DNA of 64,000 nt, from contig CM000208.1 of assembly GCA_000002445.1 (NCBI GenBank), positions 896,001 to 960,000 on the forward strand, given 5' to 3'. Shown here in pieces: positions 38,179-58,057 of the stretch. Below the pieces are notes generated by a model. It had not been told where the DNA came from, ran no database searches, and worked only from the letters and a program-made list of their open reading frames with translations. Each line of letters starts with the position of its first letter. Position 1 is the stretch's first letter. The position numbers and the translations under genes are program-made. This DNA comes from Trypanosoma brucei. Lineage: Eukaryota.

Positions 38179-39675
38179 ATGGCGGTTGGTGCAGGCGTAC
38201 GGCAACGAGCCGCAGCTGCGGCTCGCCACTGGCGTCGTGTTTCAGTTAAAACGCTGCGGAGTCGACTCTCCACCCCGCACGTGTGTGACATAAAACTTCC
38301 GCTCATATCAAATGAGGCCCCAGTGGGTTCGGGACCGGCGCTGAACATTCGCCTGGGGACCAACAACGAAGAGATCATGCGATGGTGCCAACTCGAGTAC
38401 TTTGGTTTTTTAAAGCCTGCAGATGCCGCCACCGACTCGCATACGAGTAACACAAGTGATGTATGCATCCACTCCGGGCCTCCAGGGCAGTTGGGATACC
38501 CATACGCGCTGACAGCGGAAGTTGATAATTTCACTGATGCGGTGCGACGCGATGAGGAGTCCGCTGAGTGGCAAAATATTAGTGGAGCGGAAAGTGCGCA
38601 TCCTTCGCGGTGGTTGACTCAACTGCTTCTGGACGGTTTCATCTCCCGCCGCGTGGCTGCACACGTTGGTTTATCAGCTGACCATTTGATGGACACAGTG
38701 AGGATGGCACGGCAACTAAAGGTGCCACTCGCACCGAGTGAGGTGTCACCGCATTATTTTTCTAATGATCTCTTGTCAACTTGGGGGGTGTTTGGAGAAC
38801 TGAAATCGGGCGATACCGATTTTGTTGGTGACTACGTGCATCGGGTGCTGCAGTTGGCTCACGCCAGTTCTGTCATCTCTGCTTGTCACTCCGTTTGGTT
38901 GAAAGGTACGGCTATATGTAATGGTAATGGTGGCGCCGTAATCATTTTAGGCCCGAGAGCAAGTGGGAAAACAACACTTGCGCTTCATTGTTTGGCAACG
39001 TCAACACCCAAAATACGTCTCATAGGGTTGGAACATTTTCACATTGCGCCTGAAAGCGTCATTCAGGGAGCCTCCATTAGCAGTGGTGGTGCGCGCGCGC
39101 TTCTCATGTCCATTCCATCACCGGCTAGTGTCGGTATCGGCGCTCTTATTGGATCACTTAAACCGAACCCCAGCTTAGTTGAGGCCGCCCACACTTTCAC
39201 GTGTAGTGCTGCAACGATCAACAGTCTCATGCGTAACAGCGAGGAAACCATATGGTTTATGGGGCGACGGCATGTAGTAAATATAAACGAAGCATTTGGA
39301 CCACATCGTTGGTGCCCCACATGGTTTGGTACTGTAAAGGGAATTGTGCTGTTGAATTGGGATGTTCATGAGCTTTCACGTCCAACCTCATCGGCAGGCA
39401 CCCAAATCATCCATTGGACAGAGAAGGAAGACTGCTTCAAGGCACTGAACGCCTTCGCAACAAATGCAGGAGCCGCCCTGTTCAAGGGGCACTATCTTAT
39501 ACGCTCCATGTACAACGAGTTAAATGCACACAGACAATTGGAAGAAATGCTCTTTTCTGGTGGTGAAGTTGATGGAAAGGTGGGAGTCCCACCAATATTT
39601 GAGGTTCGAGGCGCAGTACACTTCGATGCCGTGGTTAAGTTGATATGCGATCGCCTCCTTAACGAAACGAACTAA
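38179..39675 (+). CDS. Hypothetical P-loop NTPase with a mitochondrial-presequence-like N-terminus.
   Basis: ATG 38179. The N-terminus is MAVGAGVRQRAAAAARHWRRVSVKTLRSRL. It has a Walker A motif ILGPRASGKTTLALHCLA. I see no further family signature; a loose resemblance to HprK/PEPCK-type P-loops is speculative. Confidence 0.5.
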   Translation: MAVGAGVRQRAAAAARHWRRVSVKTLRSRLSTPHVCDIKLPLISNEAPVGSGPALNIRLGTNNEEIMRWCQLEYFGFLKPADAATDSHTSNTSDVCIHSGPPGQLGYPYALTAEVDNFTDAVRRDEESAEWQNISGAESAHPSRWLTQLLLDGFISRRVAAHVGLSADHLMDTVRMARQLKVPLAPSEVSPHYFSNDLLSTWGVFGELKSGDTDFVGDYVHRVLQLAHASSVISACHSVWLKGTAICNGNGGAVIILGPRASGKTTLALHCLATSTPKIRLIGLEHFHIAPESVIQGASISSGGARALLMSIPSPASVGIGALIGSLKPNPSLVEAAHTFTCSAATINSLMRNSEETIWFMGRRHVVNINEAFGPHRWCPTWFGTVKGIVLLNWDVHELSRPTSSAGTQIIHWTEKEDCFKALNAFATNAGAALFKGHYLIRSMYNELNAHRQLEEMLFSGGEVDGKVGVPPIFEVRGAVHFDAVVKLICDRLLNETN

Positions 39676-40294: not shown

Positions 40295-41221
40295 ATGATG
40301 TTTCACACATTCACTGCGCTGTTTATCACGGCGACATGTGTGTCGTGCTCAAGAGCTTCCGCTGCCGCAGCAGCCGTCACAGATGCAGAGCCTGCAGCTA
40401 CCAGCGGTTCCACATCCCGTTGTACGTTACTGCAACAACTACTAGGCGTAGGACGCAGCGTAAATTTTACGAAGAGATATGTAAAGGAGCTCGTGGATCA
40501 ATCGGTGCGGGCTGAACAGGAATGCACTTATTACCTCTGGACGGCGAGAGGTAACATCACATTTTCCTCCAAAGTGCTCTACGACGGTCGAAGAAGCCGC
40601 GGGAGTAGCAACGTATACGTTAAACTCGCAGAGAGAGCTTTTGAAGAAGCTAAGTTGGATCATGAAATTCTGAGAGAAACTGTGTATAGCGTGGAACGGA
40701 ATTTGTTGGTGATTAGGTCGCAAAGCGCCGAGATGAACCGCAACGGATATGAAGCCGTTAAGGAAAGCAAAAAAGCCGTAGCCAAATTGGTGCGCTCCGC
40801 GAATCGTTATATGGGGAGATATCATGGAGGCGATGACGACATTTCGGAGACATGTAAATTAGCCCCAGCATCTGGCGTCACATTCGCCTCGTTAGAGCAT
40901 GCCATGCGGAACATTACTGACGAAATGGTCGATTCAGATGCTCTGGAAGGGGCGAGAAAAGTGTTCCGCTCGCTCGTGGAAGTGGAAGAGGCTAGAAAGA
41001 AAGCAATGCGAGTGGCTCAAGAGATAAAAGAGGGAAAACAGTTGGCACAGGGAGCGGAGGCGAGAGTTGCGGGACATGCCAACGCTGTCTTTAGTGTGAT
41101 GCGCACCAGTAAACAGAGCATGACAATTAACCATTCCAGGGGCGGAACGAACGCATCTCAATTCCTTTGGAATTGGATTAAATTCCTTTTGTTGTCGCTG
41201 ATTAGTGCCGCGGCCCCATAA
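40295..41221 (+). CDS. Predicted secreted/surface protein with a signal peptide, a coiled-coil-like middle and a C-terminal hydrophobic tail compatible with a GPI-anchor signal.
   Basis: The N-terminus is MMFHTFTALFITATCVSCSRASAAAAA. The C-terminus is ...GGTNASQFLWNWIKFLLLSLISAAAP. This is the last gene of the plus-strand array before the strand switch. Confidence 0.5.
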   Translation: MMFHTFTALFITATCVSCSRASAAAAAVTDAEPAATSGSTSRCTLLQQLLGVGRSVNFTKRYVKELVDQSVRAEQECTYYLWTARGNITFSSKVLYDGRRSRGSSNVYVKLAERAFEEAKLDHEILRETVYSVERNLLVIRSQSAEMNRNGYEAVKESKKAVAKLVRSANRYMGRYHGGDDDISETCKLAPASGVTFASLEHAMRNITDEMVDSDALEGARKVFRSLVEVEEARKKAMRVAQEIKEGKQLAQGAEARVAGHANAVFSVMRTSKQSMTINHSRGGTNASQFLWNWIKFLLLSLISAAAP

Positions 41222-42418
41222 GGTATTTTCCGTCGCAGCAGTGTATATAGTCCTTTGTTTTGATTATCGGACCTCACGTAGAGAAAAGTAATTTATTAGT
41301 TTCAAGTGTCTATAACTTAACTGTTATGTTTTACTTGTTTTTTCCCCCCCCTTCCCACCGAATGACGTCTTTTCATTTCCTTCTGTTTTTTTTAGTAAGA
41401 AAAACTTTTCTTTTGTTTTGCGGCTCTCAAAGAATATACCGTACAGGCTATAAAGTATCTCGTGCAGCTACCTTGTCAGTTGCAGAGCTTATATTCTGTT
41501 AATTCATCCTGATTCTACCTGAACTTCTAATGTTATAGTGTAATATATGTTATAGCAGCCGCACGTGCCGAAGAAAGTGGAAAGTACGTCCAACTGCGGT
41601 CATGTGCGGGAAGCGCCGTCTTTTCTTTCTTCATTTCCCTTTTGTTTCCTTTTTCAGAACATATTGGTACCGCAACATAGGTATTGTCCGATGCGTGAGT
41701 GGATACGCGGGGGTACGCGATTTGGTCGGAAAATATTTTTTTCCTGCGGCATCGTGTGCTTTTCGATAATTGAGCTAATATTTTGAGTCCCTACCTGTTA
41801 TCAAAATCTTTGTCTTTCCTCCATCTTGATTTTTACAAGGTTGGTTACAGCATTAATGGTTTTGTTTTGACACATTGCCTACGTTAAGGTTTAAGGAATT
41901 TGGACCGTTAGCGCCGTCAGGCTTTGCACACCCAAGCGCGTACACGCTCAACGCATTTTGATTCAGTCAAAGCGGGCTTCTGAGGCTTGTGGACTACCAA
42001 ACAACAACATTATTGATAATAATAATAATAATACAAAACAATGATAGCGATGGCGATGATAAAAGTGGCATTTCAGGTAGCAGCCACTTAACAACACACG
42101 TCGGAAGGCTCTGTCATTCGAAACGGTTGCGGGACTCTGAGATTTATTGACGAGATTTTCGGTTACGCACTATCCATGAGAAGCGGATGTTGTTTTGTTT
42201 CGTTTTGTTAAATTTCTTTTTTTTTTTTTTGCATCCCTCCTCGGGAAAGCGCGTGAGGAAACTTGTTGAAGGTGGTAAGTTTTTGGTGAAGGTCGGAGGC
42301 GCTGCGCCTCTTAAACGAGATTAGCTCCGTAAGTATTCGGAAGGCATTCGCGTCCCCAAACGCAACTGTGTTGAACTTTCAAATAACAAATTGAATTAGA
42401 GCGAGGAATGCTGCATAT

Positions 42419-42457
42419 GCGGCACAGTGAGCGTAGCGTACCCGATCACAGTGCCGC
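42419..42457 (+). other. Near-perfect inverted repeat / hairpin with a 12-bp stem (11/12 paired) and a 15-nt loop.
   Basis: gcggcacagtga (42419-42430), then loop gcgtagcgtacccga, then tcacagtgccgc (42446-42457). A T11 run follows about 50 nt downstream. Confidence 0.5.
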
Positions 42458-42505
42458 AACCGCCAAATCTGTCTGGAAGGTTGCGCGTTGGTGCGCTGGA
42501 AAATC

Positions 42506-42516
42506 TTTTTTTTTTT
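42506..42516 (+). terminator. T11 run following the hairpin. It is a candidate termination or RNA 3'-end signal.
   Basis: ttttttttttt at 42506-42516. Its role is an inference only. Confidence 0.2.
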
Positions 42517-43087
42517 AGCCGTGTTGTTCGTTTTAGGGAACTGTGCCAACAGCAGCAGCAAAGGGGGAAAAAAGGTTCATTATGTTTGCAGATCGATAAG
42601 TGCAGCGCCGCCGCGCTCATTGGCTAGAAAACTCCATTGTGCTAAACGAAATGGCTCACTCCGTATTTTTTCAATTAATCCACCATTCACTGTGAACTGA
42701 GTTCAGGTTTTTTGTTTTCCGTTAGCAAGGCCACTTCCACTTTGCTACTCATGTTTCTTCCGTCTCAGAAACAAAAAAAAGTATGCAGTAAGAAGAGGAA
42801 AAATCCATAAGGAAAAGAGGTCTTGTTTGTTTATTTGTTTTGGACGCATGCTTCGACATCATCACTTGAAAACCACCCGCAGTGGAGGTGTAAGATAAAT
42901 AAGACAGCAGATTACAACAAAAACTGCCCCAAACCTTCCCCATCCGTATTCGTTACGCTACCCGCATTATTATCGTTATTGCGGTGACTTTCTCATTTGA
43001 GCCACCGTGGGTGGCCTTCCCTCCTAAGATGCGGTACAGTTATGTGGCTTTGAGTGAAAAACTGCGAGTAGCGGCGCCACTGACATG

Positions 43088-43110
43088 CACACACACACAC
43101 ACACACACAC
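43088..43110. repeat. (CA)11 microsatellite in the strand-switch region.
   Basis: cacacacacacacacacacacac. Confidence 0.9.
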
Positions 43111-43843
43111 GAGTCCCCACGCCAGTACGCGCGCGAATATGTTCATATTACCAAGTGCTCCCTGTGGTGGGCATCACCTCAGCGGTTTTATTTATTTATT
43201 TTTCTTTCAAAAAACAAAAAAAAACAAGAACAAAGGCAATGAGCCCCTGCTACACTTCTCATAGGTACTCATCAAACATAATCACGGAGTTCCTCGCACA
43301 TTCCGCCTGCCCGGCCGTCGGAGGTTCACTCACTCGACCTCAAGTCCAAACGCAACAGGACCAAACCGCAAGGGATTCTCCACTGAGCGGAAGACGTAAA
43401 TCCTCCTGCACGCCGCCAACGTAATTTTTCTTTTTTTTCCCCTCATTGAATTTTATAGCTTTCGCATTCACCCACCCCATGCCCGTTTAACATGCCATCC
43501 GGTTCATCCCTGTGCGGTTTCCATCATTGCCTTTGAAAATTAAATTCCCGCGGTCTCTTCCTTCCCCTTCTTGAAGTAAACGTGGGAAAGATCCACCAAC
43601 AAGTAAATCTCAGTGGGAGGAGACTATACAAAATCTCGCCTCTTCAGCATCCTTCTACGGAGGCGCCTGGTCGACGCTTAGTGGATTCATTTAATCCATG
43701 TGCATCAGACAAAAAACGAACGATTTGAGTTCCCTCGCTATTTTACCGGTTGCACATGCAAACGGTTCATACAAATCCGCACCACATCGACAATACCAAA
43801 TGTAATGAAGAGGTCTGAAACATCACACGCACCTCTCGCTCCC

Positions 43844-44494
43844 TCACACCGATGTGGAGAGTTCCAAATGTTTCACCCCGAGGGCGTGAATGTTGAATTC
43901 CCCACGATCGGAGAAGCGTCTTTGCACGCCCATGACACATGTGGAGTGAACCACAACCACGCAAAACATAGCCTCCACGCCACCCCCACAACTTTTAACC
44001 CTACCGGAAGGGATAACAACAAAACGGTTGGCGGGAAATGTAGTTTGCAATGCAGCCTGCAAGTAAGCCTTCTTGCTGTCTACATTTGTGTTGTTCTTCA
44101 CGCTAAACGAAAACCCAACTTTGTGGAGTTGCTGATCCGATGCCGAGGATGCGGGGAAATGTTCAATCCGAAGCTTCTCTAACCCGAGACGCATCTCGGG
44201 AAGGATGGGGCAGCATGTTAACTCGCAAGGTATCAGACGAAAACAGTGACGCAGCGCGGGGCGTTGGTTCTCCTCAACATCCTCAAAAATACGTTCAACA
44301 ACGGTACGTACCAGTGGGTTGTGCACAACTGAGTGCGCTACGAGGGCCTCAGCTCCAGAAGTAACATTGGGGCCGTCTTCGTTATGTGGCTCAATCACAA
44401 CCGGATTCGCCCTGCAATGATTATCACCGTTTCCCTCCGCCTCCGCACATGAAACAATCCCAGCCCGCTGTAGAGGAAAAGGTATGCTCACCAT
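43844..44494 (-). CDS. Hypothetical protein (216 aa from the first in-frame ATG). The gene model is uncertain.
   Basis: The minus-strand ORF in the track extends to 44824 but begins at TTG. The first in-frame ATG is 44494. A competing ORF lies on the other strand. The region borders the strand-switch region. Confidence 0.3.
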   Translation of the reverse strand: MVSIPFPLQRAGIVSCAEAEGNGDNHCRANPVVIEPHNEDGPNVTSGAEALVAHSVVHNPLVRTVVERIFEDVEENQRPALRHCFRLIPCELTCCPILPEMRLGLEKLRIEHFPASSASDQQLHKVGFSFSVKNNTNVDSKKAYLQAALQTTFPANRFVVIPSGRVKSCGGGVEAMFCVVVVHSTCVMGVQRRFSDRGEFNIHALGVKHLELSTSV

Positions 44495-46390
44495 CAGGTG
44501 ACCTTTGCAGCACGTCTCGAGTGGGGCCAACCAGCGGCAATTTCTCTGCTCTGATTTGTTTCCTGTGAAACTTCCTGTTCGCGATCGTTTCCGAGGGGGC
44601 CGTTCCCCATCGTCGTCACTATTTCTCTCCTTATCTTCGATGGCGGGCCCTGGTATGTAAGCGGCGAGCTCCGCCGTGAGAAGACTCGAGGTGGAGGGGC
44701 TTGGTTTCTCCAAAACATTTGTTTCAGTTGTTGAACCCACTTGTTTTTTCTCACCGTTGCTACCATCATGTTCCCTTTCCAAATCCGCTATGAGTGGCTG
44801 CAAATAGAGCTGCAGTTCCCGCAACGCCTTCGACTCCTGCCGGGGGGTTCACAGTCCATAAAAGTCCTGAAATGCGACCGTGTGGTACCAGAATGCGGCC
44901 AAGACGGCCCTTGTGGTGACGTTGTTTCCCCGCGTCTTGCCGATACGTCCGCGGTGCCGGCATCTCACCTTATTTGACCAAGCGTTTGCTTTGGAATCAA
45001 AAAGAATTTTGAAAATTTTGTGAAATAGCCGCAAAAAAAAAAAATAAATAAATCATATTTACAGCGAAGAGGCGAAGCGGGTGATGAAGAGAGGAATTAC
45101 TAATACAAATGAGTGATAAGGCAAAAATATACGGGACACCGCCATTTTTGTTAGACACATTCGTGATCAACACTTCTAATTTGTGATTTTCAAGGACGGA
45201 CAATCCCCTGCCTATGCACACATATATCAGCACTTTCCCCCGCGCTACTTCATCCAATAGCGTGCCGTTCGTATACGCGCCACATATTCCTCACCTAATG
45301 TGTGGGTTCCCGTGCCAAAGCAAACACCACAACCTGCGCCTATCGTCATATTCTTCGTTATTTTCATATCGAGAACATAAACCCTAACCTCAAAAAAAAA
45401 AAATTTGCGTTACATATTGGATATTGGTTATCCTCACTTTCCCGCGAGATGCAAGCGGAATGCTACAACTTTAAGTGAATTTTGGCAGCAGGTTTTTGTG
45501 CCGAAAAGGAGAGCTTGTGGTACACACCCGCTGTTTAATATTTAACGAAACAATAACAGTAACAACTAAATGTCGACAACACCTTCAGAGCATGTGGCAG
45601 GAGGTTGATTGTTACTAAGGCGTGTTAACGGTTAACCGTTGTGGGTTTGCATACAATTATATGCCCATACGTCCTCACTTGATCCTATAGTGATGCTCAT
45701 GTAAAACTTCCTTCATGGTAGGATAAACTTTTAGATATGATGAAGATACGCAAACTACAGCCAGTAAATATATCAACTTGCCACCTCCGGAGGTGGTTGG
45801 TAATTTTCTTCCCCCCCCCCCCGCTAGCGCCATGAGGGAAGGTGTATTACCACATTTGCAAACACACACACACACACAGAAAAAAAAAAAGACAACACCA
45901 AATAAATGCAATCCGTTACGGGTGAGTAAAGGTACATAAATATCCTTTTGGAAAGTGGTGGGCACAGGAAGCACCCATAATTTTCCTCACGGTCCGTACG
46001 GTAAGGCGACAAACAAACAGCTCACCGTAATCCAACAGAGTAAAAATACTTTTTTACAACATCACCCCAACATCCGGCACCACCACAAAAACACAAACGG
46101 CCGGAGCCCTTTTCACATCATGTACACACAAAGTCACCAAGGAACTACGGTACGAAACAAAGTGAAATGTGACGGAAGGAAATATGCTCAAAATATGTGA
46201 AAAGAACCAATGATGCGAAGTCACCACACCAACTCAACCACTAATATCATTTTTTCCTTCTCCATACACGCACCATTGAGTCCTTTTATTCACCTTTTTT
46301 TTCTATTTTTTCTTCCGGCCACTAAAACTCTAGCGTAACAGTCGGTTCCCTTCTCTATCTATTCAACGCCTCAGTCTCTCTTTAATACAA

Positions 46391-46428
46391 TATATATATA
46401 TATATATATATACCTATATATATATATA
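46391..46428. repeat. Interrupted (TA)n microsatellite.
   Basis: (TA)11 cc (TA)7. Confidence 0.9.
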
Positions 46429-46828
46429 CCTCAACCGCAACACGTGCGCTTGGAGAGAGTCATAATCTCTTTCTTTTGTTCGTTCTCTTTACCATTTTTT
46501 GTCTTTGTTTTCTTTTGCTCCTTCCTTCTTCCATACTCCCCCCTTTTTTTTTCTCTCTATGAACTCGGTGGGCCTTCCTCCTCTTCCTCTTCCATTCATG
46601 TTGCTGTTTTTTTTTTTTTCGTTCCCATCTTTCTCTCTGTTTCATCACGGCGTTTTTCATCTAATTCACTTTGGTACGTGAACGTGGGCCTTTACATATA
46701 TGCGCGTGAGAAGTCAAGGGAGTTGAATGGGAACTGGAGGTTGCCACAGAAAGGATTATTTAAAAAGAAAAAAAAAGTAAATATAAGAATAAATACACGG
46801 GGGAAAAAAATAAACAAGTTGAAGATAA

Positions 46829-47683
46829 TCACACAAATACAGAGGCGATACGCCACGCCACTGGGGCAAAGAGAAGCACAAATCCCGCACCTACAGCCAT
46901 TTGTTCAACACGTGTGGCCTCTGCAACAAGAGCGAGAAAAGCAACAAGTGCTGCTGCTGCTGTTTGCTTCAAGCCAACAGGCATGAAAGATGTAGTGAAA
47001 AGCGCGAAGGCCGCTACTAGCACCACAACAGCGTGGCCCAAAGCAGTAAGTTGCGCAATAACTGAATACATGATTTCTTTCTTGTCCTTACCACTGGTGA
47101 ATATACTGACCTTGAAGGTAGGGACAGTAAGAAATGGCCGAAGAACGGCGTAAAGCGTCTTTTCCTCATTGGAGAAGCTAAAAAGCGGAAGAGCAAAGGC
47201 ACCAAACACTAAAACAGCAAGCGTGGCGATTGACGCCCACAACTGCTGTGAGCAGCGAATACGAACCTTTTCGAGTAGAGATTGGCGGTGTTGACCGTAC
47301 CAAACCTCGAAATCGGGTGAGCGGAATAAGTCATCAAGTGCCTTTGCTGTAATGGGTTTACCACCTGTGGCATAACGTTTAGCTGATCCTAATTCTGGAG
47401 TGTGTCCACTGGGCCTTTCCCGACCCCTGCTTGGTTTTGGTTCTGCTTGCGCCCGTAATTTTACTGAAGTGAGTATGGGGAACTGCATCACAACACCTCG
47501 CAGCAGTGCCCAAAGGAAGAGGTGAAGGGGTTCACTCTGCTGGTGGTATTTCTCCAAGAGCGGCTTAAGCAAAAACGCCCACAACGGTGCCACCACAAGT
47601 GCAATGATGAAAGCGTGTTTCATTGCCACGGGGTTCCATAAGGATTGCGGAACGCGCTGTGTAAAATATCGAAAGCCCTCCAT
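46829..47683 (-). CDS. Hypothetical membrane protein with about 4-5 TM segments.
   Basis: Minus-strand ORF. The track start at 47692 is TTG; the ATG is at 47683. Several hydrophobic helices (FIIALVVAPLWAFLL, IATLAVLVFGAFALPLF, AVVVLVAAFALFTTSF). No recognisable family. Confidence 0.45.
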   Translation of the reverse strand: MEGFRYFTQRVPQSLWNPVAMKHAFIIALVVAPLWAFLLKPLLEKYHQQSEPLHLFLWALLRGVVMQFPILTSVKLRAQAEPKPSRGRERPSGHTPELGSAKRYATGGKPITAKALDDLFRSPDFEVWYGQHRQSLLEKVRIRCSQQLWASIATLAVLVFGAFALPLFSFSNEEKTLYAVLRPFLTVPTFKVSIFTSGKDKKEIMYSVIAQLTALGHAVVVLVAAFALFTTSFMPVGLKQTAAAALVAFLALVAEATRVEQMAVGAGFVLLFAPVAWRIASVFV

Positions 47684-49454
47684 TACTTCCAACTTGGCTT
47701 ATTTCTCACCCCTTTCCGCTCTTTTCCCTATTTACTCAATGTGAACCTACAGGGTTTTCTCAGAAACGCCACTCCCTCTAAAATACCTTCCCGTTGCTTC
47801 GCTCTTTTTTCTTGCTGTGTATTCGTCTTTCCTAATACACTTTAAGTGGCTTTCGCGTGGTGTCTGCTACTGCTGAGGTTTAAAAAAAAAAAAGATGACA
47901 CAACTGCAGGACAGTAGGAATGTGTAAAACCAATTATTCGTATGAACAACAACAACAACAGCTGGATATGAGGGGGAATAGAAAAGTCAAAACCACAAGG
48001 GGAAATATGCACACACTTGCGGAGTCTTGCAACGCTGATAAAATTGTGTGCTAAAGCTTGATCAGAACATTCACAAGGTTTTTTTTTTCGATACGAAGGC
48101 ACGTGTCGATGTTTTTTTTCTTTTGGTGTTTCCCTTGTCAACAAAGGCGGCCACCGCTTCATGACTTTGCGCACACGATACCATCAGTGTTTTCGTACGA
48201 TCCACTTTATGCAATTGATTTAATGATTGTTTGCATTTCTCTTCAACATTCAGATAATTACACACATTTTACTCCTTTAAATCAATTTATGCCGCATACC
48301 GTGTGTGCATATTAGGGCAAAACAACCAACGGTGCTTGCGCCAGAAACCAATGGAAGATCACACAAAACTTTAATTGGAAAAAAAAAGTATATCCAAGCA
48401 TCAAACGAAGTTGGGCGGCGGCAGTGACAAAACAAACCCCCCCCCCCCAAAAAAAGGAAGCTGCTGCAGAAATTTTTTTCTTTTCTTCCCGCTTTGCTTC
48501 CCTCTACACAAACATGCTCATTTCCTTTACGTCACAGTCGCAAAAAAAAAAAAATAGACCTGTGCACGATGATATGTCCCACGCTTGACCACGGCACTGC
48601 CTTTTTAGCAGCACGAATAACAATAATAAGAAAAAAAAAGGAACAAAAAAAATTATTTAGTTAATTATTACGTAACATCCCTGTTCTTACAATAGTCGCT
48701 GCCTATTATCACCACCTCCCATTTCTAGTCCGGAGGTACTTCGAAATCCACAAGATATTTACAAGGAACTCACAATAAGTGTATCAATGTGCATGCGCGC
48801 ACGGTCCCGTCACCACATAGGTCTTTTTTGTCCTTCAATATTAAACGGGGACCCAAAACAGAGAGTGGGAAAAGCAACACCCCGCTTGTACACCCGGACA
48901 TGCGCGCGCACACGTGACTTCAGTGTGGTTGAATGGTGGTTTATTTTCGTTACGCTGTGTTTTTTTTATATATTTCTCTCCTTTCCCCTTTTCTAACTAA
49001 ATTGCAAAATACCACTGATTACATATGTATATATGTGTATGTGTGTGTGTGTGTGCGTCCACCAACTGCGAACATCTGCTGCCCACGCTCACACCACCTC
49101 CTCCACGGACTGTTCTCAAGAAGTGAAAATCCCGGCGAGCCGCCAGTGGTGAGGAGGAGAAGCAGAGAGGGAAGTGGACCAGTAGAAGTGTGGACAACTG
49201 GGCCGAACATAAACCACTTGCCTGTTTCAATGCCACTGTGCCATACCCATGGAAACTCAACACGGTTCGCGCTGTCCTCGTTCACCCTCGACACGTATGC
49301 ACCACTCATTTACAACGGAGCGGGAACACGTTACACTCCCCTTTCTTTTGTGATATCCCGTTGTTTTTGTAACGGCAGTGTAGCCTACGGGTTAATCAGC
49401 CGGATCGCACTCTCTAGCCCATTCTACGTTCACTGAACACATCGGAAGGCGCCA

Positions 49455-52400
49455 TCACAGCGTTCCCGACTCGCCGTCAACCGTATGAACGAGCTCTTTG
49501 TCATAACCCATGCTCAGTAACTCATTCTTCACGTCGCGCTGCATCACGGGCGGTCCACACACAACAATCAGCGGCTCACTCGATGGCGGTTGCAGCACCT
49601 TCTGCAGGGATTTCTTGTTGACAAACCCCACTCCACCTGTCCACCCTTCGGGTGGGTTGTTAAGAACGAAGTTGCAGACGAACTTGTCGGGGAACTCTTC
49701 CGCAAACCGCTGCAAAATTGAGCGATACGTCAATGTGTCGTACTCTTCTGCGGCGTATATAAGACGGATGCTTTCCAACGTGTCCACGTAAGGCTTCTTG
49801 AGTGCCGCACGAATAACCTGCAACATGGGCGCGACACCAGTCCCTGCCGCGACAAGAGCAAACCGCGTAATAGGCCGGTTACGAAACAGCAGACACTTCT
49901 TTACTGGGTCTTGATCAATACGAAGACCTCCACATGCTTTGATTTCGACGGAGTCGCCCGGTCGCAAGGCGCAGATCCATTCCTTCAATGTGCCCTTGTC
50001 GGCACGAACCAGAAGGGAGATAGTGCCAAGGTCCTCTGGTAGTGTAATTGGACTGAAGTAACCAACAAGTTGTTGGCCGTCCCACTCGCCACGGATGGCC
50101 ACAAATTCGCCCAGATTGAGACCTGTGCGCTGCAGCGCCCCAGGTAGGTTAAAACGAAGAACACGAGAGCCGGTCCCGAACTGTTCGCCGGAGCGGGACT
50201 CACGTACAACAACGGAAGTCCAACTCGTCTTGGAGAGGGCTATCTCACGTTTTTGAAGTATTGTTGCGGCACGGTCACCCGCAATTTTCCCGAATACCAC
50301 ACATTCCAAGAGCGAATTACCACCAAGGCGGTTACCACCGTGCACACCACCCGTCACTTCACCGGCACCAAACAAGCATCGAATCGGTCTATGGTTTTCC
50401 AGAATATTTAAACCTTTGTACTCCTGAAGAACTTCAGCAGCCGGTGAAATGAGGCAGCCACCCATTGTGTAATGAATGGAAGGCGTGACAAAAGCAACAT
50501 TGTACGGCCCCCTTGTACCCACCACACAAGGGAATACTACCTTCCCCGTCACAGGGCACGCAACTTTGGCCTTGCTGCAAGTTTCATACTTTTCAAGCGT
50601 ATCCCGTAATTCACCTTCGTCACAGCCAATCAGTTTGGCCAACTCTTCCACAGTCTCAGCACGCTGGAACAAACCAAGCTTCTTTCCGTAGAACCCCAGT
50701 GCACCGCCACCGAAGAGGTTTGTTGCATCTTCGTTGAGCACGCAGTACGCAAAGTAACATCCACCGGATCCAGGGTATTCATTACCCTGCGTATTAATTG
50801 CCTTGGATACAACAGAGCGGAGGTCAAGTTCATTCACGAAGCGCTTTCCTTGCTTGTTGAGTAATATCCCACCCGAACCTCGGAGTGCCTCCGGGCCGAG
50901 AATCTTCGTTGTGTTCGCGGGATCCTTTGGATCGATAAGCCCTGTGGGGTGTAGCTGAACCTTATCCATATCCACAAGCTTTGCACCAACCGATGTTGCG
51001 AGTTTAACCCCGTCACCGGTCGCCCAGGGGCCATTTGTCGTTGGAAAACTGGCCAGGTGAGGCGCATACTTGCAGAGCAGTGAATTTTCTTCACGGTCAT
51101 TGGAGAAACCACCAGTTGCAAGAACGACGGCATCCGCAAGCAATTTTGATGGCTGGCCATCCACATCGGAGAGGTCCCTGTATCTTACACCCGTAACACG
51201 CACTTCGGAGGCGCCATCAGGTGTTGTATCGGTTTCGTGCAATAACTCGGTCACGGACACATGTGTCATAATCGTTACTCGCTCAGAGAGGTTGTTACGG
51301 ATGTGATCCTCGAGGGTTCTCATGATCGTATGACCAATTGGTAGGGGTGTCCCGTCCGTTTTGTCCGGGGCACGGTGGGTTCGCTTGAAACTGTGGCCAC
51401 CAAGTTGCGAGAGGACACTGAGTGGCACACCAAGAGAAGTAAGCCAACCAATTGCGTCCCCACTCTTAACTGAGAGCACTTTGACGAGGGCAGGATCGGT
51501 AGTACCGCCAACGCCAGAGAGAAAAGTGTCACGCTCAAAATACTTTCCACCGTCGAGAATATCTGACTTTGCCTGCGTACGCGTCCCCCACCCATTAATA
51601 CCTGATGTAGCCTTTGCGCTGTTCCCCCCGATTCTTCCTTCCTTTTCCATGAGTATGACTTGTGCACCACAACTTGCGGCTTCGATGGCCGCTGAAAGGC
51701 CCGCTAGACCTCCACCCACAATAACAATTCTGGAGGGCAAACTCCCGGCAATCCGTATTTCACGTAGCTCCCGTGTTTCTTGCGCTATCTCGTGCATATG
51801 TGCTAACCGCTCGCCCTGACGGGTATAGGCGAAGTAATTCGTCACACGACTTCGAACGTAACGCCAGCCCTCTAATAAGTAGCGAATCCTCACAGCATCA
51901 CGCTTCACAAGGCACACTGTTGCCAGAGCATCAGCGTACATTGCGCTATAACATTTCACAGACACTTGAGCGAGTGCCCCTTCCTCAGGAGATAGTAGCC
52001 CCCTTCGCTGCCAGTCAAAAATGCTCCCCGCCACTCCATGCTTTGGATGATACAAAACGTTTTCGTAGTCACCACTGGTGCAAAGGGCTTCATCATCAAG
52101 CTCCACCACATGAAGCAGGGATGGAGAATCATCGTCCTTCTCTTCCTGCTCCTCCTCCCCCATTTTTAACATTTTCCCTTTGGCGCGCCGAATCACCTCC
52201 TCCACAGATGGCGGTCGTTTGATAGCAACTGCCCATAGGTTTCCTTTGATGTTCCTACCCGACGCTCGAATATCCCCGCCCCACTCAAAGAGCACGTTTG
52301 GCATACCGGCCGCACGAAGATGATCCACTACATAATCAACTGTGTAGCCTTTGTTCACACCACCAAGATCAAGCCTCGCTTCAGAGTGCTTGCGAGCTAT

Positions 52401-53153
52401 TGTTCCCTCCTCGAGGTCCACGTCAAAACTTTGCGCTAAGGAGAAGAGCTCTACCTCGGCTTCCGTTACGGAAATGTCGGACATGTCGTTGTGGTCCCTC
52501 ATTGCCCCCCGAAGTCGGCTGATAATTGGACCTGCCGCCGGGTCGAAGCCCATTCCGCTGGAGTGATGTACACTGATGGTGCACTCCATCACGTGCCGGA
52601 GATCCTCCGACATTTGATGCTTCTCACCCACCGGCAGAGAGTTGACACGCGACAACTCGCTTTCAGGATTGAAACAATTGAGGGAGTAGTCCACCATGTG
52701 AAATGCCTTTCGCAAAATCTCAGCTGCCTTTGCTTCGAATTCACCTGTAGAGCGCGAGTTACAAAGAACCACGGCGAGCCTGTACGGAATCGTGTGCTCC
52801 AACCCCTTTAAGTTAATGATAGTGGGTTCATCTTCTTGACAAAGACCACTATTACTTGAGAGCAACTCGCGCGCCATGCGGTCACGCTTCTTTGCTGCCG
52901 CCTCCGGGTCAGTGACAACAATCGAAGCCGAGGAAATACCATCGGCGCCATGGGACGTAAAACGCTTTTGACATGAAACAACCGAGGGAGCGGGTGGCGC
53001 TAGGGATTTGAAGAAGCGCCCCCATACGACCCGCATTGGTGAAACCGAGTCGCAAGGGTCGCCGACAAGCGAAGGGCTGTCTCGCGCAACTCCAGAGCTT
53101 CCCGCCACTAATGCAGATGTGGCTCGAAGGAGAAGTTGCTTCGTTGAGAGCAT
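49455..53153 (-). CDS. FRD: NADH-dependent fumarate reductase, a tri-domain enzyme (ApbE-like flavin-transferase domain + FAD fumarate reductase domain + cytochrome b5 reductase-like domain). The N-terminus looks like a mitochondrial presequence.
   Basis: ApbE block GYTVDYVVDHLRAAGMPNVLFEWGGDI. FAD Rossmann IVIVGGGLAGLSAAIEAASCGAQVILMEKE. FRD/Osm1 motifs HPTGLIDP and HYTMGGC. FNR-type motif VAAGTGVAPM. The N-terminus from ATG 53153 is MLSTKQLLLRATSALVAGSS (the track start at 53171 is GTG). This architecture is the kinetoplastid FRD. Confidence 0.9.
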   Translation of the reverse strand: MLSTKQLLLRATSALVAGSSGVARDSPSLVGDPCDSVSPMRVVWGRFFKSLAPPAPSVVSCQKRFTSHGADGISSASIVVTDPEAAAKKRDRMARELLSSNSGLCQEDEPTIINLKGLEHTIPYRLAVVLCNSRSTGEFEAKAAEILRKAFHMVDYSLNCFNPESELSRVNSLPVGEKHQMSEDLRHVMECTISVHHSSGMGFDPAAGPIISRLRGAMRDHNDMSDISVTEAEVELFSLAQSFDVDLEEGTIARKHSEARLDLGGVNKGYTVDYVVDHLRAAGMPNVLFEWGGDIRASGRNIKGNLWAVAIKRPPSVEEVIRRAKGKMLKMGEEEQEEKDDDSPSLLHVVELDDEALCTSGDYENVLYHPKHGVAGSIFDWQRRGLLSPEEGALAQVSVKCYSAMYADALATVCLVKRDAVRIRYLLEGWRYVRSRVTNYFAYTRQGERLAHMHEIAQETRELREIRIAGSLPSRIVIVGGGLAGLSAAIEAASCGAQVILMEKEGRIGGNSAKATSGINGWGTRTQAKSDILDGGKYFERDTFLSGVGGTTDPALVKVLSVKSGDAIGWLTSLGVPLSVLSQLGGHSFKRTHRAPDKTDGTPLPIGHTIMRTLEDHIRNNLSERVTIMTHVSVTELLHETDTTPDGASEVRVTGVRYRDLSDVDGQPSKLLADAVVLATGGFSNDREENSLLCKYAPHLASFPTTNGPWATGDGVKLATSVGAKLVDMDKVQLHPTGLIDPKDPANTTKILGPEALRGSGGILLNKQGKRFVNELDLRSVVSKAINTQGNEYPGSGGCYFAYCVLNEDATNLFGGGALGFYGKKLGLFQRAETVEELAKLIGCDEGELRDTLEKYETCSKAKVACPVTGKVVFPCVVGTRGPYNVAFVTPSIHYTMGGCLISPAAEVLQEYKGLNILENHRPIRCLFGAGEVTGGVHGGNRLGGNSLLECVVFGKIAGDRAATILQKREIALSKTSWTSVVVRESRSGEQFGTGSRVLRFNLPGALQRTGLNLGEFVAIRGEWDGQQLVGYFSPITLPEDLGTISLLVRADKGTLKEWICALRPGDSVEIKACGGLRIDQDPVKKCLLFRNRPITRFALVAAGTGVAPMLQVIRAALKKPYVDTLESIRLIYAAEEYDTLTYRSILQRFAEEFPDKFVCNFVLNNPPEGWTGGVGFVNKKSLQKVLQPPSSEPLIVVCGPPVMQRDVKNELLSMGYDKELVHTVDGESGTL

Positions 53154-53395
53154 TATGTCGAAGAACTCCACTTTTTTCCCTTGAAATCGGATCTTTAGCC
53201 TTTCCCTTCCTTTAAAGTTTATTTTGACTCTTTCCTAGTTCCTTATGAAGCCCCTCGCTCAGCTGCTGGTTTGTAATGACACTTAATTTGATAATCCCCA
53301 CCGAATACTGGATTCTATCATGTTGAGTCAACAGAGAACGACAAAAAAAGAGGATGCATATCACTGGCTTACGCTGCCAACAACGTCCAAAGAAG

Positions 53396-53418
53396 GACGA
53401 CACAAAAAAAAAAAAATA
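53396..53418 (-). promoter_or_regulatory. Polypyrimidine (T13, in minus-strand sense) tract upstream of the fumarate reductase gene.
   Basis: An A13 run on the plus strand at 53404-53416, which is U13 on the transcribed minus strand, 250 nt upstream of ATG 53153. Confidence 0.4.
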
Positions 53419-54379
53419 ACGGATAAAAATGCGCAGAAAATTACAGTATGGAATCCACCAAATACAATATGAGGATCTTTATGTTATGAAGATCTCAGCG
53501 GAACGGGAAAAAATGGGACCACAATTGCGTGATTGAAATGATGCATAGTAGTCGAGAGGTTACTCGCTCCCCCCATCACACAGCATTAACAAAGTCTGTG
53601 GCTTAAAGTACCAGAGCAAAACGCCCACACAGCTCGTTCGTGTTGGAAGAGTAACCGTTACCCCCTTTGCTACACATTTCCCGGCTGTTTTTGCTATCTT
53701 TTCTCTGTTACAGTTTCCCACTCCGGCATTGCTTGCTATCACCAAATCGGTTTGATGAAAGGAGACAAATATGGCAAATCATCGCCAAATCCATCTTACC
53801 AATACGCACGCAGGGGGCTGTAGCTAAAGTACTTAACGCACTAAACCCTTTTTCATTCATCCAATGGTCGACACTCCAGATACAGATACACATGCACGCA
53901 CACATATATTTATATTTATTTATGTGTCTTAGCATGATAAGAATGATTAGGAAGGACCTACGGAAGTGGTGATGGCAGAAATCATGTTGCGTAGTGATGC
54001 ATTGGCTCAACCATGCTGGCAGCGGAAAGTGCCTTCGTGCTGGGTCCATCAGCACAAAAAATCACCGAATGACACGAAAAATACAGAACATGCTACGAGG
54101 TATATCCTACCCTCATATTTCCTACCTTTCCTCAGGCCTTCCTCATTTCGAATAGAATACATATGCGTATGTTTGAAATGAGAAGGAAAAGATTTTCATT
54201 CTGCTGATTTTTCATCTACTTCATTTACCTGATGCATTTCAATCTTGTCAGCTATTCAAAAATACCGTTTCCCTTTCAACCCCCTCCCGCCCCTTTACCC
54301 CAAAGTGCCAATCCGATTTTCCTTCAATAAAACTTCGTTTATTCAAAAAATGCCGTCTCCCCTCGCCCTGTTTTTAGTC

Positions 54380-54401
54380 CCCCTGCCCCCACCCCACCCC
54401 C
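54380..54401 (-). other. Canonical G-quadruplex motif on the minus (transcribed) strand: G5-T-G4-T-G5-CA-G4.
   Basis: The plus strand reads cccctgcccccaccccacccccatt. There are additional C4-C5 blocks at 54281-54300 and 54321-54372. Confidence 0.6.
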
Positions 54402-55951
54402 ATTCTTCCCAACCCATATAAAACACAACAGTTGTACATCCACGGGGTTCCACTGATACAACATGCAACTTTGTATACCTCCCTTTTGTTTCCACTGTGT
54501 ATCTGTTTCACCAGTTCGTCGACGACTTAACTGGTTGTTACAAAATAATTATGAAAAGGAAACGACAAAGACATACATCTTGTGGATCCCCTTTCTCCTT
54601 TTTTGATGTCATTCCCAGAATCCCTTCTCCCCCTTCCTCCTCTAGAAAAAAAAGGAAAACAAAGGTATACAAACAATAGAAGTAAATCGCTTCTTAGAAT
54701 CATCAACAATAGTGGTGGAGAAATACTCCTTTTTAATTCTATTTTTCAAAGTACCCTCCCCCATTCTCACCATTTATTGCTCTTCTCACTTTTGTATTAC
54801 TTCAAAAGAGTTCACATGGATCCCGAGATACATAAAGGCCGTGCAACTCGTTTTCAACGTGTTTGTTACTTTTTCTTTTATTGTTGTTATTGTCGTTGTT
54901 CTTTTTAGTGTTTTATCATTTATTCCCACTTTGCTACACCACATATCTTACAAAGTTTAACATTATTATTATTGTTATTATTATACTTTGATTTTGATTT
55001 TGATTTTTTACCCTCTTCATTACTTGTTTATTTTCTTTTTTCCTTTAGCTCGCGGGGTGTCTTTGACACGCCGCTGTTAGTGCTGCCCAGCAACCGAACC
55101 GACGAGAAGGGAGGTACCGTTACAAAACAAAACAAAACAACAATATTTTCATATATAAAAATTTGCGCATACGAAACAGAGGGAATATTCGCACAAAATA
55201 AAAAAATGCGATGTGAAGGTGCCTAATCATAACGAAAAGGAACTGCACACAAAAGGTGAAAGAAACAAGGGAATATATTATACATATTGTTATTTACTCC
55301 ACTGCTTTTGTTTGTCTTCTTTACCATCCTCACCGCCTGCCTTTGCCTTCGGCCGTCAATACACAAAAATACTGCAAGACATTAGCTGCATGCCGAAAAA
55401 AAAAAGATAAAAGATAAAATATAAAAAAATGAATAGGGAGTAATAAAAGCAAAAAAGGGAAGAGGAGAGGACAAGAGAGATCTGGTTTCTTCCTTACACC
55501 ACCTCCTCCCATATAACTAAGTAAGAAAGCAAAGGAAGGTTTAGCTTAAAGAAACCAAAACAGCGGCAACACCAGCAATGCCACAAAATAGAAAAGGTTT
55601 CCCCTTGGCCACCCCCTTTTTTTTTTTGAAGTTTACCCCCTTCCCACCCCGCTTTGTTTATTTCCCGTGAGTTTACGCATGCACCATATCTTCCATCAAC
55701 TGTTTAGCAGAACAGAAGGAACATGCGAATCAAAAAGGAAATGATAAACAACAACTACATACCTTGAATTGATTACAAACCCTAACCGTATATGATCCCC
55801 CCATGCCATACATTTTGCCATGGAGCGATGCTTACGCACTGAGGCACGGTCTATCTGATTACCCGGAAAAGGGCCGATGTACACAAACACAGTATAATAA
55901 AAACCACAGTAGTGGCATAACCCAATCACCCATCCGACTTGACACACCCCT

Positions 55952-57163: not shown

Positions 57164-57922
57164 TGCAGATTTCTTGAGCACTGTTACTGTTACTTCCTTT
57201 TATTATAAGTTCTTTCTCCTTTACCGTATTTTGTTGAGTATAATCGGTTATATTTACGTTTGTATAAATCTTTAAAAACAAAATCACGGTTCTCGTTCAC
57301 TTCCTTCGTTGTTGTTGGCACTTCTTTAACAGCACCATTTAACAGATAAAAAAACGAACGTAAGAGGGGAGGAGAGAGACAGTTGCAGACCGTACCTGGT
57401 GACGCAAGTCAAAAAATTAAATAAACTCGCCAATGCCTTCCCGGTGCGTCTGCCATGTTTGAAGGCATTCGTAGAGTTCCCTTTGTTATTCTTCGGGACC
57501 TACACATCTCCCATCTCCTTCCCTTTTACACCCCTTCCACACCTTCACAACCTGACATAAACGCACCATTGGACGTAAATATAAACGCAAGTACCCACGC
57601 ATATCCATACAGTCATATATATATCTGTACGTATGCAAACCCATGATAATAACAATCGAACAGCAGCCACCGTTGAAGTAAGCGGATATATATTATATTT
57701 ATTTATAACTGGAACACCTTCAGCGACGAAATTACCGGGCTGAATGCCCCTAAATTCAACAGAACGAAGTGAACCAAACGCAAAAGTCATCCAACAAAAA
57801 AAGCGCAAAGCTCTCCCCCTCCACCAAAAACGGCTGCACTGGCAGTTAGGTACAAGCAATTTAGTAACAAATCATAAGGGTGAGTCTCTCGGAACAATGA
57901 AAACAAAAAAAAAGTGAGAAAA

Positions 57923-57924
<2 letters not shown>

Positions 57925-57954
<30 letters not shown>
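57925..57954. repeat. (GT)15 microsatellite.
   Basis: gtgtgt... run between ASAT and the acidic-protein gene. Confidence 0.95.
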
Positions 57955-57955
<1 letters not shown>

Positions 57956-58057
57956 TGTTTATCGGAGGGAAGCAAATATGTCACAAAGCAAATTGGAAAA
58001 ATACACGTGCAAACACATGCCCGCCTACCCAATATCCTGAAACGCCAAATAAACCTG

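What the first reader, a model, noticed from the sequence alone, without database searches (positions are those of the whole stretch)
41222..43843. Convergent strand-switch region with no tRNA but a structured hairpin-plus-T-run element
Fourteen plus-strand genes end at 41221 and seven minus-strand genes begin at 43844, so the two polycistronic units converge here. In trypanosomes such convergent regions are Pol II termination sites (base J, H3.V). They often harbour Pol III genes, yet I find no tRNA A/B boxes. The only strong structure is a 12-bp inverted repeat followed by T11, plus short palindromes and a (CA)11 tract.
Basis: partly seen in the sequence, partly recalled or inferred. Interest (0 to 1): 0.5.

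Follow-up and report, generated by a model that had tools for sequence, protein, structure and literature searches.

The report
Ordinary, already-mapped trypanosome transcription termination region
This is the known convergent end-point of two gene arrays on Trypanosoma brucei chromosome 10; published data show that transcription stops here through chromatin marks (base J), and the hairpin and T-run lie inside a published transcript, so they are not a terminator.

Summary
The window is T. brucei TREU927 chromosome 10 (window coordinate = Tb927_10_v4 coordinate minus 896,000). The gap 41222-43843 lies between Tb927.10.3620 (308 aa, +) and Tb927.10.3630 (THUMP-like, -).

Fourteen + genes meet seven - genes. 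There is no tRNA, no B box and no Rfam family. A 12-nt inverted repeat, a T11 run and (CA)11.5 are all present.

The hairpin-plus-T-run idea does not hold:
- T11 starts 47 nt after the hairpin.
- Repeats of this grade occur at chance frequency.
- Thirteen T runs of at least 10 nt inside the upstream array are read through.
- Both features lie inside Tb10.NT.41, a published trans-spliced, polyadenylated transcript (window 41840-42657, +) whose poly(A) site is 141 nt past T11.

Published work already lists these two arrays as converging here and uses exactly this interval as a convergent strand-switch region (cSSR). In base J-null cells, antisense RNA over Tb927.10.3630 rises about 35-fold; deleting H3.V alone has no effect. 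Small RNAs are sparse.

Comparison with other trypanosomatids shows the junction is lineage-specific: elsewhere the array continues past the THUMP gene.

Verdict: a real, ordinary and already characterised termination site. The structured element is incidental.

The parts
40295..41221 (+). Tb927.10.3620 (old id Tb10.70.3780), 308 aa, putative surface protein; last coding gene of the + array
   Evidence: The exact protein is EAN77783/XP_822611. Kolev Table S14 gives it as the last gene of its array. The Schulz distance to the cSSR edge, 928, equals the 927-nt CDS plus 1.
41222..43843 (.). Convergent strand-switch region as defined by the CDS ends; Tb927_10_v4 937,222-939,843
   Evidence: ORF map. 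The coordinate offset of 896,000 was checked on three genes and one splice site. The Schulz cSSR distances fit this interval.
41808..41839 (+). Polypyrimidine tract plus AG: trans-splice acceptor of Tb10.NT.41. [quoted passage not shown]
   Evidence: The sequence CTTTGTCTTTCCTCCATCTTGATTTTTACAAG ends exactly one base before the published 5' end at 41840. [quoted passage not shown]
41840..42657 (+). Tb10.NT.41: published trans-spliced, polyadenylated 817-nt transcript, 1.8 RNAs per cell in procyclic cells; no conserved ORF
   Evidence: Kolev 2010 Table S7 places it at 937840-938657 +. It is absent from Tables S8-S11. Its longest ATG ORF is 45 aa and is not in the protein collection. There is no similarity to the T. 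congolense flanks.
42217..42230 (+). T14 run inside Tb10.NT.41; T13 in T. equiperdum
42418..42458 (.).
   Evidence: identical in T. equiperdum
42506..42516 (+). T11 run, 47 nt after the hairpin and 141 nt before the Tb10.NT.41 poly(A) site
42560..42700 (.). Compositional strand-switch point. The cumulative G-C of the whole window peaks at 42602. Pyrimidine tracts dominate to the left and purine tracts (- strand pyrimidine tracts) to the right.
42658..43296 (.). Interval between the innermost published poly(A) sites of the two strands; inferred core zone in which both polymerases stop
   Evidence: + strand poly(A) site at 42657. - strand poly(A) sites at 43441 (major) and 43297 (mean). That this is the termination core is inference.
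43088..43110 (.). (CA)11.5 microsatellite
   Evidence: falls in an assembly gap in T. equiperdum
43297..43843 (-). 3' UTR of Tb927.10.3630: major poly(A) site at 43441 (403 nt), mean at 43297 (547 nt)
   Evidence: Kolev 2010 Table S13
43844..44963 (-). Tb927.10.3630 (old id Tb10.70.3760), conserved THUMP-like protein; last gene of the - array; N-terminus frameshifted in this reference

Best explanation
The interval is the convergent strand-switch region between Tb927.10.3620 and Tb927.10.3630 on T. brucei chromosome 10, and it is an ordinary Pol II termination zone.

Most of the 2.6 kb is transcribed end-of-array sequence.
- On the + strand, the 3' UTR of Tb927.10.3620 is followed by a trans-spliced, polyadenylated terminal transcript, Tb10.NT.41 (41840-42657). 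Its splice acceptor sets the upstream poly(A) site, because trans-splicing and polyadenylation are coupled.
- On the - strand lies the 400-550-nt 3' UTR of Tb927.10.3630.
- Polymerases from both sides stop within or near the roughly 640 nt between the innermost poly(A) sites (42658-43296). The base composition of the two strands also flips close to its left edge, at 42602.

Stopping is specified by chromatin, not by a sequence terminator. In bloodstream forms it requires base J, together with the termination-site histone variants H3.V and H4.V and the J-binding PJW/PP1 complex known for this class of site.

The hairpin, the T runs, the palindromes and the CA repeat are incidental intergenic sequence. 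The T runs are ordinary polypyrimidine tracts.

Shown: the gene arrangement, the absence of Pol III genes, the transcript ends and the J-dependent antisense RNA (the last two from published tables). Inferred: the exact stopping zone, the presence of J, H3.V and H4.V on this DNA, and the role of the 41808-41839 acceptor in 3'-end formation of Tb927.10.3620.
For: - Identity and coordinates.
- Converging arrays: and Kolev Table S14.
- No tRNA, Rfam family or B box.
- Tb10.NT.41 spans the hairpin and both T runs, and its 5' end sits directly after a polypyrimidine-AG acceptor.
- Poly(A) sites of Tb927.10.3630 lie at 43441 and 43297.
- Kolev 2010 describes spliced-leader-bearing terminal transcripts at the ends of arrays and the coupling rule.
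- Schulz 2016 S2 Data: antisense log2 RPKM over Tb927.10.3630 is -3.78 in wild type, +1.37 in J-null, -3.43 in H3.V-null and +1.19 in the double null. Sense stays at 5.0 throughout.
- Schulz 2016 S6 Table: antisense RNA over Tb927.10.3610.3620.3630 and .3640 rises more than 4-fold in the double null, and .3610 also rises in J-null alone.
- The cumulative GC skew of the window peaks at 42602.
- Thirteen T runs of at least 10 nt inside the + array are read through.
- The inverted repeat occurs at chance frequency.
Against: - I could not view base J, H3.V or H4.V tracks for this locus, so their presence on this DNA is inferred from the mutant phenotype.
- Reynolds 2014 saw no read-through at T. 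brucei cSSRs by small-RNA sequencing after chemical J depletion.
- Kim 2021 found that J loss raises only polyadenylated antisense RNA, and names H4.V as the main stop signal. The J effect here may therefore partly reflect antisense RNA processing or stability, not termination as such.
- Tb10.NT.41 was mapped in procyclic cells, which lack base J, whereas the J data come from bloodstream forms.
- In Schulz's S6 Table the 'mutant value' column repeats between genotypes. Only the S2 Data values are clearly per genotype.
Confidence: 0.85

Rival explanations
1. The hairpin at 42418-42458 and the T11 run at 42506-42516 together form a sequence-encoded terminator or pause site for Pol II. It would work like a bacterial intrinsic terminator, or like the T-run that ends spliced-leader RNA and Pol III transcripts.
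For: - The stem folds at -20.8 kcal/mol, z = -3.8 when taken alone.
- It lies about 110 nt left of the midpoint of the gap (42532) and about 145 nt before the compositional switch at 42602.
- From my own knowledge, kinetoplastid spliced-leader RNA transcription by Pol II ends at a T tract.
Against: - The stem and T run are 47 nt apart, and the terminator scan does not call this site.
- A mature polyadenylated RNA runs through both and ends 141 nt further on.
- Thirteen T runs of at least 10 nt lie inside the same + array upstream and are read through.
- Repeats of this grade occur at chance frequency, and the z-score in context is only -1.5.
- Termination here fails when base J is removed, with the DNA sequence unchanged.
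Confidence: 0.04
2. The gap hides a functional gene. Either Tb10.NT.41 is a functional long non-coding RNA or encodes a micropeptide (for example the 45-aa ORF at 42187-42324), or another small RNA gene lies here.
For: - Tb10.NT.41 is trans-spliced, polyadenylated and present at 1.8 copies per cell, similar to many mRNAs.
- It contains an ATG ORF of 45 aa and a stable hairpin.
Against: - It is not in Kolev's lists of conserved ORFs or of ORFs with peptide support.
- The gap ORFs have no Pfam match above threshold, and none is in a 15-billion-protein collection.
- There is no Rfam hit.
- There is no DNA or translated similarity to the T. congolense flanks or to any other trypanosomatid locus fetched.
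- Terminal spliced transcripts are an expected by-product of coupled processing at the ends of arrays.
Confidence: 0.07
3. The region is one of the T. brucei cSSRs where the two arrays overlap, producing double-stranded RNA and Dicer-dependent siRNAs.
For: - Many T. brucei cSSRs do this.
- The innermost poly(A) sites are only about 640 nt apart, so the primary transcripts could overlap.
Against: - Reynolds 2016 S2 Table: the chromosome 10 cSSR at 937355-943346 has 6.3 small-RNA reads per million in wild type and 13.3 in the H3.V knockout, not significant. siRNA-rich cSSRs reach 3,000-6,000.
- That table uses strain 427 coordinates, so I matched the site by proximity.
Confidence: 0.04

Closest known systems
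Convergent strand-switch regions / Pol II transcription termination sites of Trypanosoma brucei (marked by base J, H3.V and H4.V; read by the PJW/PP1 complex)
   Same: - Two gene arrays converge and the mature transcripts of both strands end inside the region.
- Loss of base J gives polyadenylated antisense RNA over the flanking genes of both arrays.
- The site is already in the published cSSR and transcription-unit lists.
   Different: Nothing essential. The J dependence of antisense RNA over Tb927.10.3630 (about 35-fold) is among the larger values in the published table, and H3.V deletion alone has no effect there.
cSSRs that contain Pol III genes (tRNA, snRNA), which help to stop Pol II in Leishmania major
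   Same: Same genomic position, the end of convergent arrays.
   Different: There is no tRNA, snRNA, 5S or 7SL gene and no B box here. In L. major such genes blunt read-through after J loss. Their absence here fits the strong J dependence.
siRNA-producing cSSRs of T. brucei
   Same: Convergent arrays in an organism with working RNA interference.
   Different: Small-RNA density is very low and does not change in the H3.V knockout.
Hairpin-plus-U-run (intrinsic) terminators of bacteria, and T-run terminators of Pol III and the spliced-leader RNA gene
   Same: A GC-rich stem and a T11 run lie on the same strand.
   Different: There are 47 nt between the stem and the T run. The RNA 3' end is 141 nt past the T run and is a poly(A) site. 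Many equal or longer T runs are read through.
Synteny breakpoints between trypanosomatid genomes, which commonly coincide with strand-switch regions (from my own knowledge of El-Sayed et al. 2005, Science)
   Same: - In L. major, T. theileri and T. cruzi the FRD-to-THUMP array continues past the THUMP gene on the same strand.
- The 498-aa gene is at or next to a convergent end in T. vivax, T. theileri and T. cruzi, but it faces different genes in each.
   Different: No retroelement, RNA gene or pseudogene remnant was found at the junction.

Membership tests
Kinetoplastid convergent strand-switch region / Pol II termination site | Two polycistronic arrays on opposite strands converge, with no coding gene between them | tested here: met
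   - 14 + ORFs end at 41221 and 7 - ORFs start at 43844.
- Consecutive GenBank accessions leave no CDS in the gap.
- The gap ORFs are not in the protein collection.
- Kolev Table S14 lists both arrays.
Kinetoplastid convergent strand-switch region / Pol II termination site | Mature transcripts from both strands end inside the region without running into the opposing array in wild type | tested here: met
   Published poly(A) sites lie at 42657 (+) and at 43441/43297 (-). Wild-type antisense over Tb927.10.3630 is log2 RPKM -3.78, against 5.0 for sense.
Kinetoplastid convergent strand-switch region / Pol II termination site | Read-through (antisense RNA over the opposing array) when the termination marks are removed | tested here: met
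   Taken from published tables, not a new experiment. Antisense RNA rises about 35-fold in J-null cells for Tb927.10.3630. It rises more than 4-fold for Tb927.10.3610 to .3640.
Kinetoplastid convergent strand-switch region / Pol II termination site | Local enrichment of base J, H3.V and H4.V | not testable with these tools
   No ChIP or J-IP tracks are available here. Enrichment is inferred only from the J-null phenotype and from general statements that J and H3.V co-localise at cSSRs. J is not at every T. brucei cSSR.
cSSR containing Pol III genes | A tRNA, snRNA, 5S or 7SL gene, or A/B-box promoter elements, within the region | tested here: not met
   ARAGORN finds none. Rfam finds none at gathering score and only noise at E up to 10. 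No B-box match falls in 41222-43843.
Intrinsic or T-run terminator | Stem-loop immediately followed by the T/U run | tested here: not met
   The stem ends at 42458 and T11 starts at 42506, a gap of 47 nt. The terminator scan does not report the site.
Intrinsic or T-run terminator | RNA 3' ends fall in the T/U run | tested here: not met
   Tb10.NT.41 continues to a poly(A) site at 42657.
siRNA-producing cSSR | Abundant 21-27-nt sense and antisense small RNAs mapping to the region | tested here: not met
   6.3 reads per million in wild type at chromosome 10 937355-943346. The match is by coordinate proximity in the strain 427 reference.
Trypanosomatid synteny breakpoint | Gene order across the region differs from that of other trypanosomatids | tested here: met
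   - Genes downstream of THUMP in L. major, T. theileri and T. cruzi are mutually orthologous but absent from the window.
- T. vivax has yet other genes there.
- T. congolense contigs are too short to decide.

The most novel reading that the evidence does not exclude
The junction arose by a rearrangement in the T. brucei lineage that cut an ancestral array right after the THUMP gene and joined it to an older array end. Because no Pol III gene backs it up, termination here depends unusually strongly on base J. In this reading Tb10.NT.41, or its hairpin, would not be a mere processing by-product. It would be a functional terminal RNA, for example one that helps to recruit or maintain the termination chromatin, or one that encodes a micropeptide.
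Probability: 0.05. Interest if true: 0.4.

Novelty: already known. Interest (0 to 1): 0.1.

Why it matters
It matters little beyond housekeeping. The locus is a textbook example of chromatin-specified Pol II termination in trypanosomes, and it is already in the published lists of transcription units, cSSRs and J-dependent read-through sites.

Two points are useful:
- Sequence-only scans should not read hairpins and T runs in trypanosome intergenic DNA as terminators. T runs are splice and poly(A) signals, and polymerase reads through them routinely.
- This cSSR has no Pol III gene and few siRNAs, shows strong J dependence, and has a terminal transcript with mapped ends. That would make it a clean test locus for termination experiments.

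Tried and rejected
I scanned the eight longest ORFs instead and found nothing above threshold.
- I looked for pseudogene remnants of the genes that follow THUMP or the 498-aa gene in other species. tblastn and tblastx against the gap gave only noise, E >= 0.07. I therefore rejected a decayed gene or retroelement as the filler.
- blastn of the gap against loci from T. vivax, T. theileri, T. cruzi, L. major and T. congolense matched only low-complexity sequence. No conservation test of the hairpin is possible.
- T. equiperdum is 98.5-99% identical and has no change in the hairpin, so it is uninformative.
- The two T. congolense contigs that carry the flanking genes do not overlap. Whether the cSSR exists there is undecided.
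- The TREU927 chromosome could not be fetched by protein look-up. I obtained the coordinates from Kolev's supplementary tables instead.
- The Kim 2021 supplements do not list these gene IDs. Siegel 2010 has no supplements held. No paper mentions Tb10.NT.41 in its main text.
- The 308-aa protein shows no significant similarity to the T. vivax GARP-like genes or to the other genes facing the 498-aa orthologue (best E 0.035 over 19 residues).
Full report
**Identity and coordinates**

Exact protein look-ups place the window on chromosome 10 of Trypanosoma brucei brucei TREU927.
- The 308-aa ORF at 40295-41221 (+) is EAN77783/XP_822611, old id Tb10.70.3780.
- The 498-aa ORF at 38179-39675 (+) is EAN77782.
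- The 488-aa ORF at 58058-59524 (-) is EAN77788.
- The four accessions in between match the four - strand ORFs, so GenBank has no CDS in the gap.

Supplementary tables of Kolev et al. 2010 (PMC2936537) give v4 coordinates for three window genes: Tb10.70.3840, Tb10.70.3860 and Tb10.70.3710. All three fit window = chromosome - 896,000. The gap is therefore Tb927_10_v4 937,222-939,843.

The current gene ids are Tb927.10.3620 (308 aa) and Tb927.10.3630 (THUMP-like). This is confirmed by the 'distance to cSSR edge' values in Schulz et al. 2016: 928, 3044, 652 and 3841. These equal my CDS coordinates plus one.

**The observation**

Fourteen + ORFs end at 41221 and seven - ORFs begin at 43844. No sign of a Pol III gene was found:
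- ARAGORN finds no tRNA in 64 kb.
- Rfam finds nothing at gathering score, and only noise (E>1) in 40800-44300.
- No tRNA B box lies in the gap.

They do not add up to a structured element:
- T11 begins 47 nt after the stem. A hairpin-plus-T scan does not call the site and finds no excess of such sites (4 against 5.3 expected).
- Repeats of this grade number 10 in the window, against 1-6 in shuffles. Only 3 are not low-complexity, and the other 2 lie in coding sequence.
- The hairpin taken alone has z = -3.8. In 116 nt of context the z-score is -1.5 on the + strand and -2.3 on the - strand.
- T runs of at least 10 nt occur 18 times in the window, 13 of them inside the + array, where polymerase passes through them.

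**What fills the gap**

Kolev Table S7 lists a novel trans-spliced, polyadenylated transcript, Tb10.NT.41. It lies at 937840-938657 (+), is 817 nt long and is present at 1.8 RNAs per cell. That is window 41840-42657.

The sequence directly before 41840 is a polypyrimidine tract ending in AG, a canonical trans-splice acceptor. This also validates the coordinate conversion.

The transcript contains the T14 run, the hairpin and the T11 run. Its poly(A) site is 141 nt past T11. Polymerase therefore reads through the proposed element.

Tb10.NT.41 shows no sign of a conserved function:
- It is not in Kolev's lists of conserved ORFs, peptide-supported ORFs or ORF-less RNAs.
- Its longest ATG ORF is 45 aa.
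- The gap ORFs have no Pfam match above threshold and are absent from a 15-billion-protein collection.

On the other strand, Kolev Table S13 puts the major poly(A) site of Tb10.70.3760 at 939441 (window 43441; 3' UTR 403 nt) and the mean at 939297 (window 43297).

Only about 640 nt (42658-43296) lie between the innermost mapped RNA ends. The cumulative G-C of the whole 64-kb window peaks at 42602. Pyrimidine tracts give way to purine tracts at about 42,520-42,560. The compositional strand switch therefore lies close to the end of Tb10.NT.41.

Kolev et al. also describe low-abundance spliced terminal transcripts at the ends of arrays. [quoted passage not shown] I infer that the acceptor at 41808-41839 serves 3'-end formation of the Tb927.10.3620 mRNA, and that Tb10.NT.41 is the by-product.

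**How termination works here**

Kolev Table S14 already lists the two units as ending here: Tb10.70.4430 to Tb10.70.3780 (+), and Tb10.70.3070 to Tb10.70.3760 (-).

Their per-genotype data for Tb927.10.3630 are:

| Genotype | Antisense log2 RPKM | Sense log2 RPKM |
|---|---|---|
| Wild type | -3.78 | 5.00 |
| J-null | +1.37 | 5.05 |
| H3.V-null | -3.43 | 4.99 |
| Double null | +1.19 | 5.04 |

Their S6 Table lists antisense increases of more than 4-fold for Tb927.10.3610.3620.3630 and .3640 in the double null. Tb927.10.3610 also rises in J-null alone. Both directions therefore read through when base J is missing, with the DNA sequence unchanged.

Caveats:
- Reynolds 2014 saw no cSSR read-through in T. 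brucei by small-RNA sequencing after J depletion.
- Kim 2021 found the J effect only in poly(A)+ RNA and names H4.V as the main stop mark.
- Base J is absent from procyclic forms, the stage in which Tb10.NT.41 was mapped.
- I could not view J, H3.V or H4.V tracks.

Reynolds 2016 S2 Table lists a chromosome 10 cSSR at 937355-943346. It has only 6.3 small-RNA reads per million and no significant change in the H3.V knockout. This is not an siRNA-rich overlap site. The coordinates are from the strain 427 reference, so I matched the site by proximity.

**Why no tRNA is unremarkable**

T. brucei has 64 tRNA genes (PMC5359979) and 72 cSSRs (PMC4721609). Most cSSRs therefore cannot hold one. In L. major, Pol III genes in cSSRs blunt read-through after J loss. 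The lack of such a gene here is consistent with the large J effect, but that link is inference.

**Evolution**

Orthologues of the THUMP-like gene were located in other species.
- In L. major chromosome 35, T. theileri and T. cruzi, the array runs FRD, then a 305-aa gene, DUF2838 and THUMP. It continues on the same strand with mutually orthologous genes of about 950, 580, 160 and 230 aa. None of these is in the window.
- T. vivax continues with yet other genes.
- The 498-aa gene is the last or next-to-last gene before a convergent switch in T. vivax, T. theileri and T. cruzi. It faces different genes in each.
- The 308-aa gene is named 'T. brucei spp.-specific', yet it has a 309-aa homologue at the same place in T. 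congolense (29.5% identity, E 8e-29).

The T. brucei cSSR is therefore a lineage-specific junction: an old array end on the + side joined to a truncated array on the - side. No remnant gene or retroelement marks the joint.

The intergenic DNA has no detectable similarity outside the T. brucei group. T. equiperdum differs only by a few SNPs and microsatellite lengths. Conservation therefore cannot be used to judge the hairpin.

**Verdict**

The cSSR and the absence of Pol III genes are real, but both are already published and functionally characterised. The hairpin-plus-T-run is incidental. Novelty: already known. Interest: low.

Noticed in passing
window 44822-44827 (within 43844-44963, - strand): Tb927.10.3630 (THUMP-like) is frameshifted in this reference. 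The window has a G6 run where T. equiperdum has G5. Orthologues are 361-431 aa and T. equiperdum is 372 aa, but the longest ATG ORF here is 216 aa, which fits the 652-nt distance in Schulz's table. This is either a sequencing error or a strain-specific truncation.
   Followed up: partly
window 44964-46828; Tb10.NT.42 at 45086-45727 (-): In T. cruzi, T. theileri and L. major a DUF2838 gene sits between the 305-aa gene and THUMP. It is missing at this position in T. brucei and T. vivax. The 2-kb gap instead holds a published novel transcript, Tb10.NT.42.
   Followed up: partly
window 40295-41221 (+); L012 1710-2639: Tb927.10.3620 is labelled 'T. brucei spp.-specific' (or 'laminin-like') in databases. 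It has a syntenic 309-aa T. congolense homologue (29.5% identity, E 8e-29). A 2026 preprint tested the protein as a candidate surface receptor for complement C3, and surface plasmon resonance did not confirm the binding.
   Followed up: partly
window 41222-43843 compared with L002, L004-L006 and L009-L011: The cSSR is a synteny breakpoint. The array continues past THUMP in L. major, T. theileri and T. cruzi, while the 498-aa gene ends an array in T. vivax, T. theileri and T. cruzi opposite different genes. In T. vivax the two flanking genes lie about 245 kb apart on the same strand of one contig.
   Followed up: yes
window 42602: The cumulative G-C of the whole 64-kb window peaks at 42602. That is 55 nt before the Tb10.NT.41 poly(A) site, so base composition alone locates the strand switch to within about 100 nt.
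   Followed up: yes
window 15116-15713 (+): Another published novel transcript, Tb10.NT.40 (chromosome 10 911116-911713), lies in an intergenic stretch of the + array.
   Followed up: no
L001 (T. equiperdum), aligned to window 42485-42505 and 43077-43138: The T. equiperdum assembly has runs of N just before the T11 run and across the CA repeat. The apparent deletions there are assembly gaps.
   Followed up: yes
Schulz 2016 S6 Table (PMC4721952 supplementary file 6): The 'mutant value' column is identical for the same gene in the J-null and double-null rows, so it may not be genotype-specific. The S2 Data sheet gives separate values.
   Followed up: no
T. b. gambiense DAL972 accessions CBH15365 to CBH15372: Six accession slots separate the orthologues of Tb927.10.3620 and the 488-aa gene in T. 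b. gambiense, against four in TREU927. That annotation therefore has two extra gene models somewhere in the equivalent of window 41222-58057. I could not see which.
   Followed up: no
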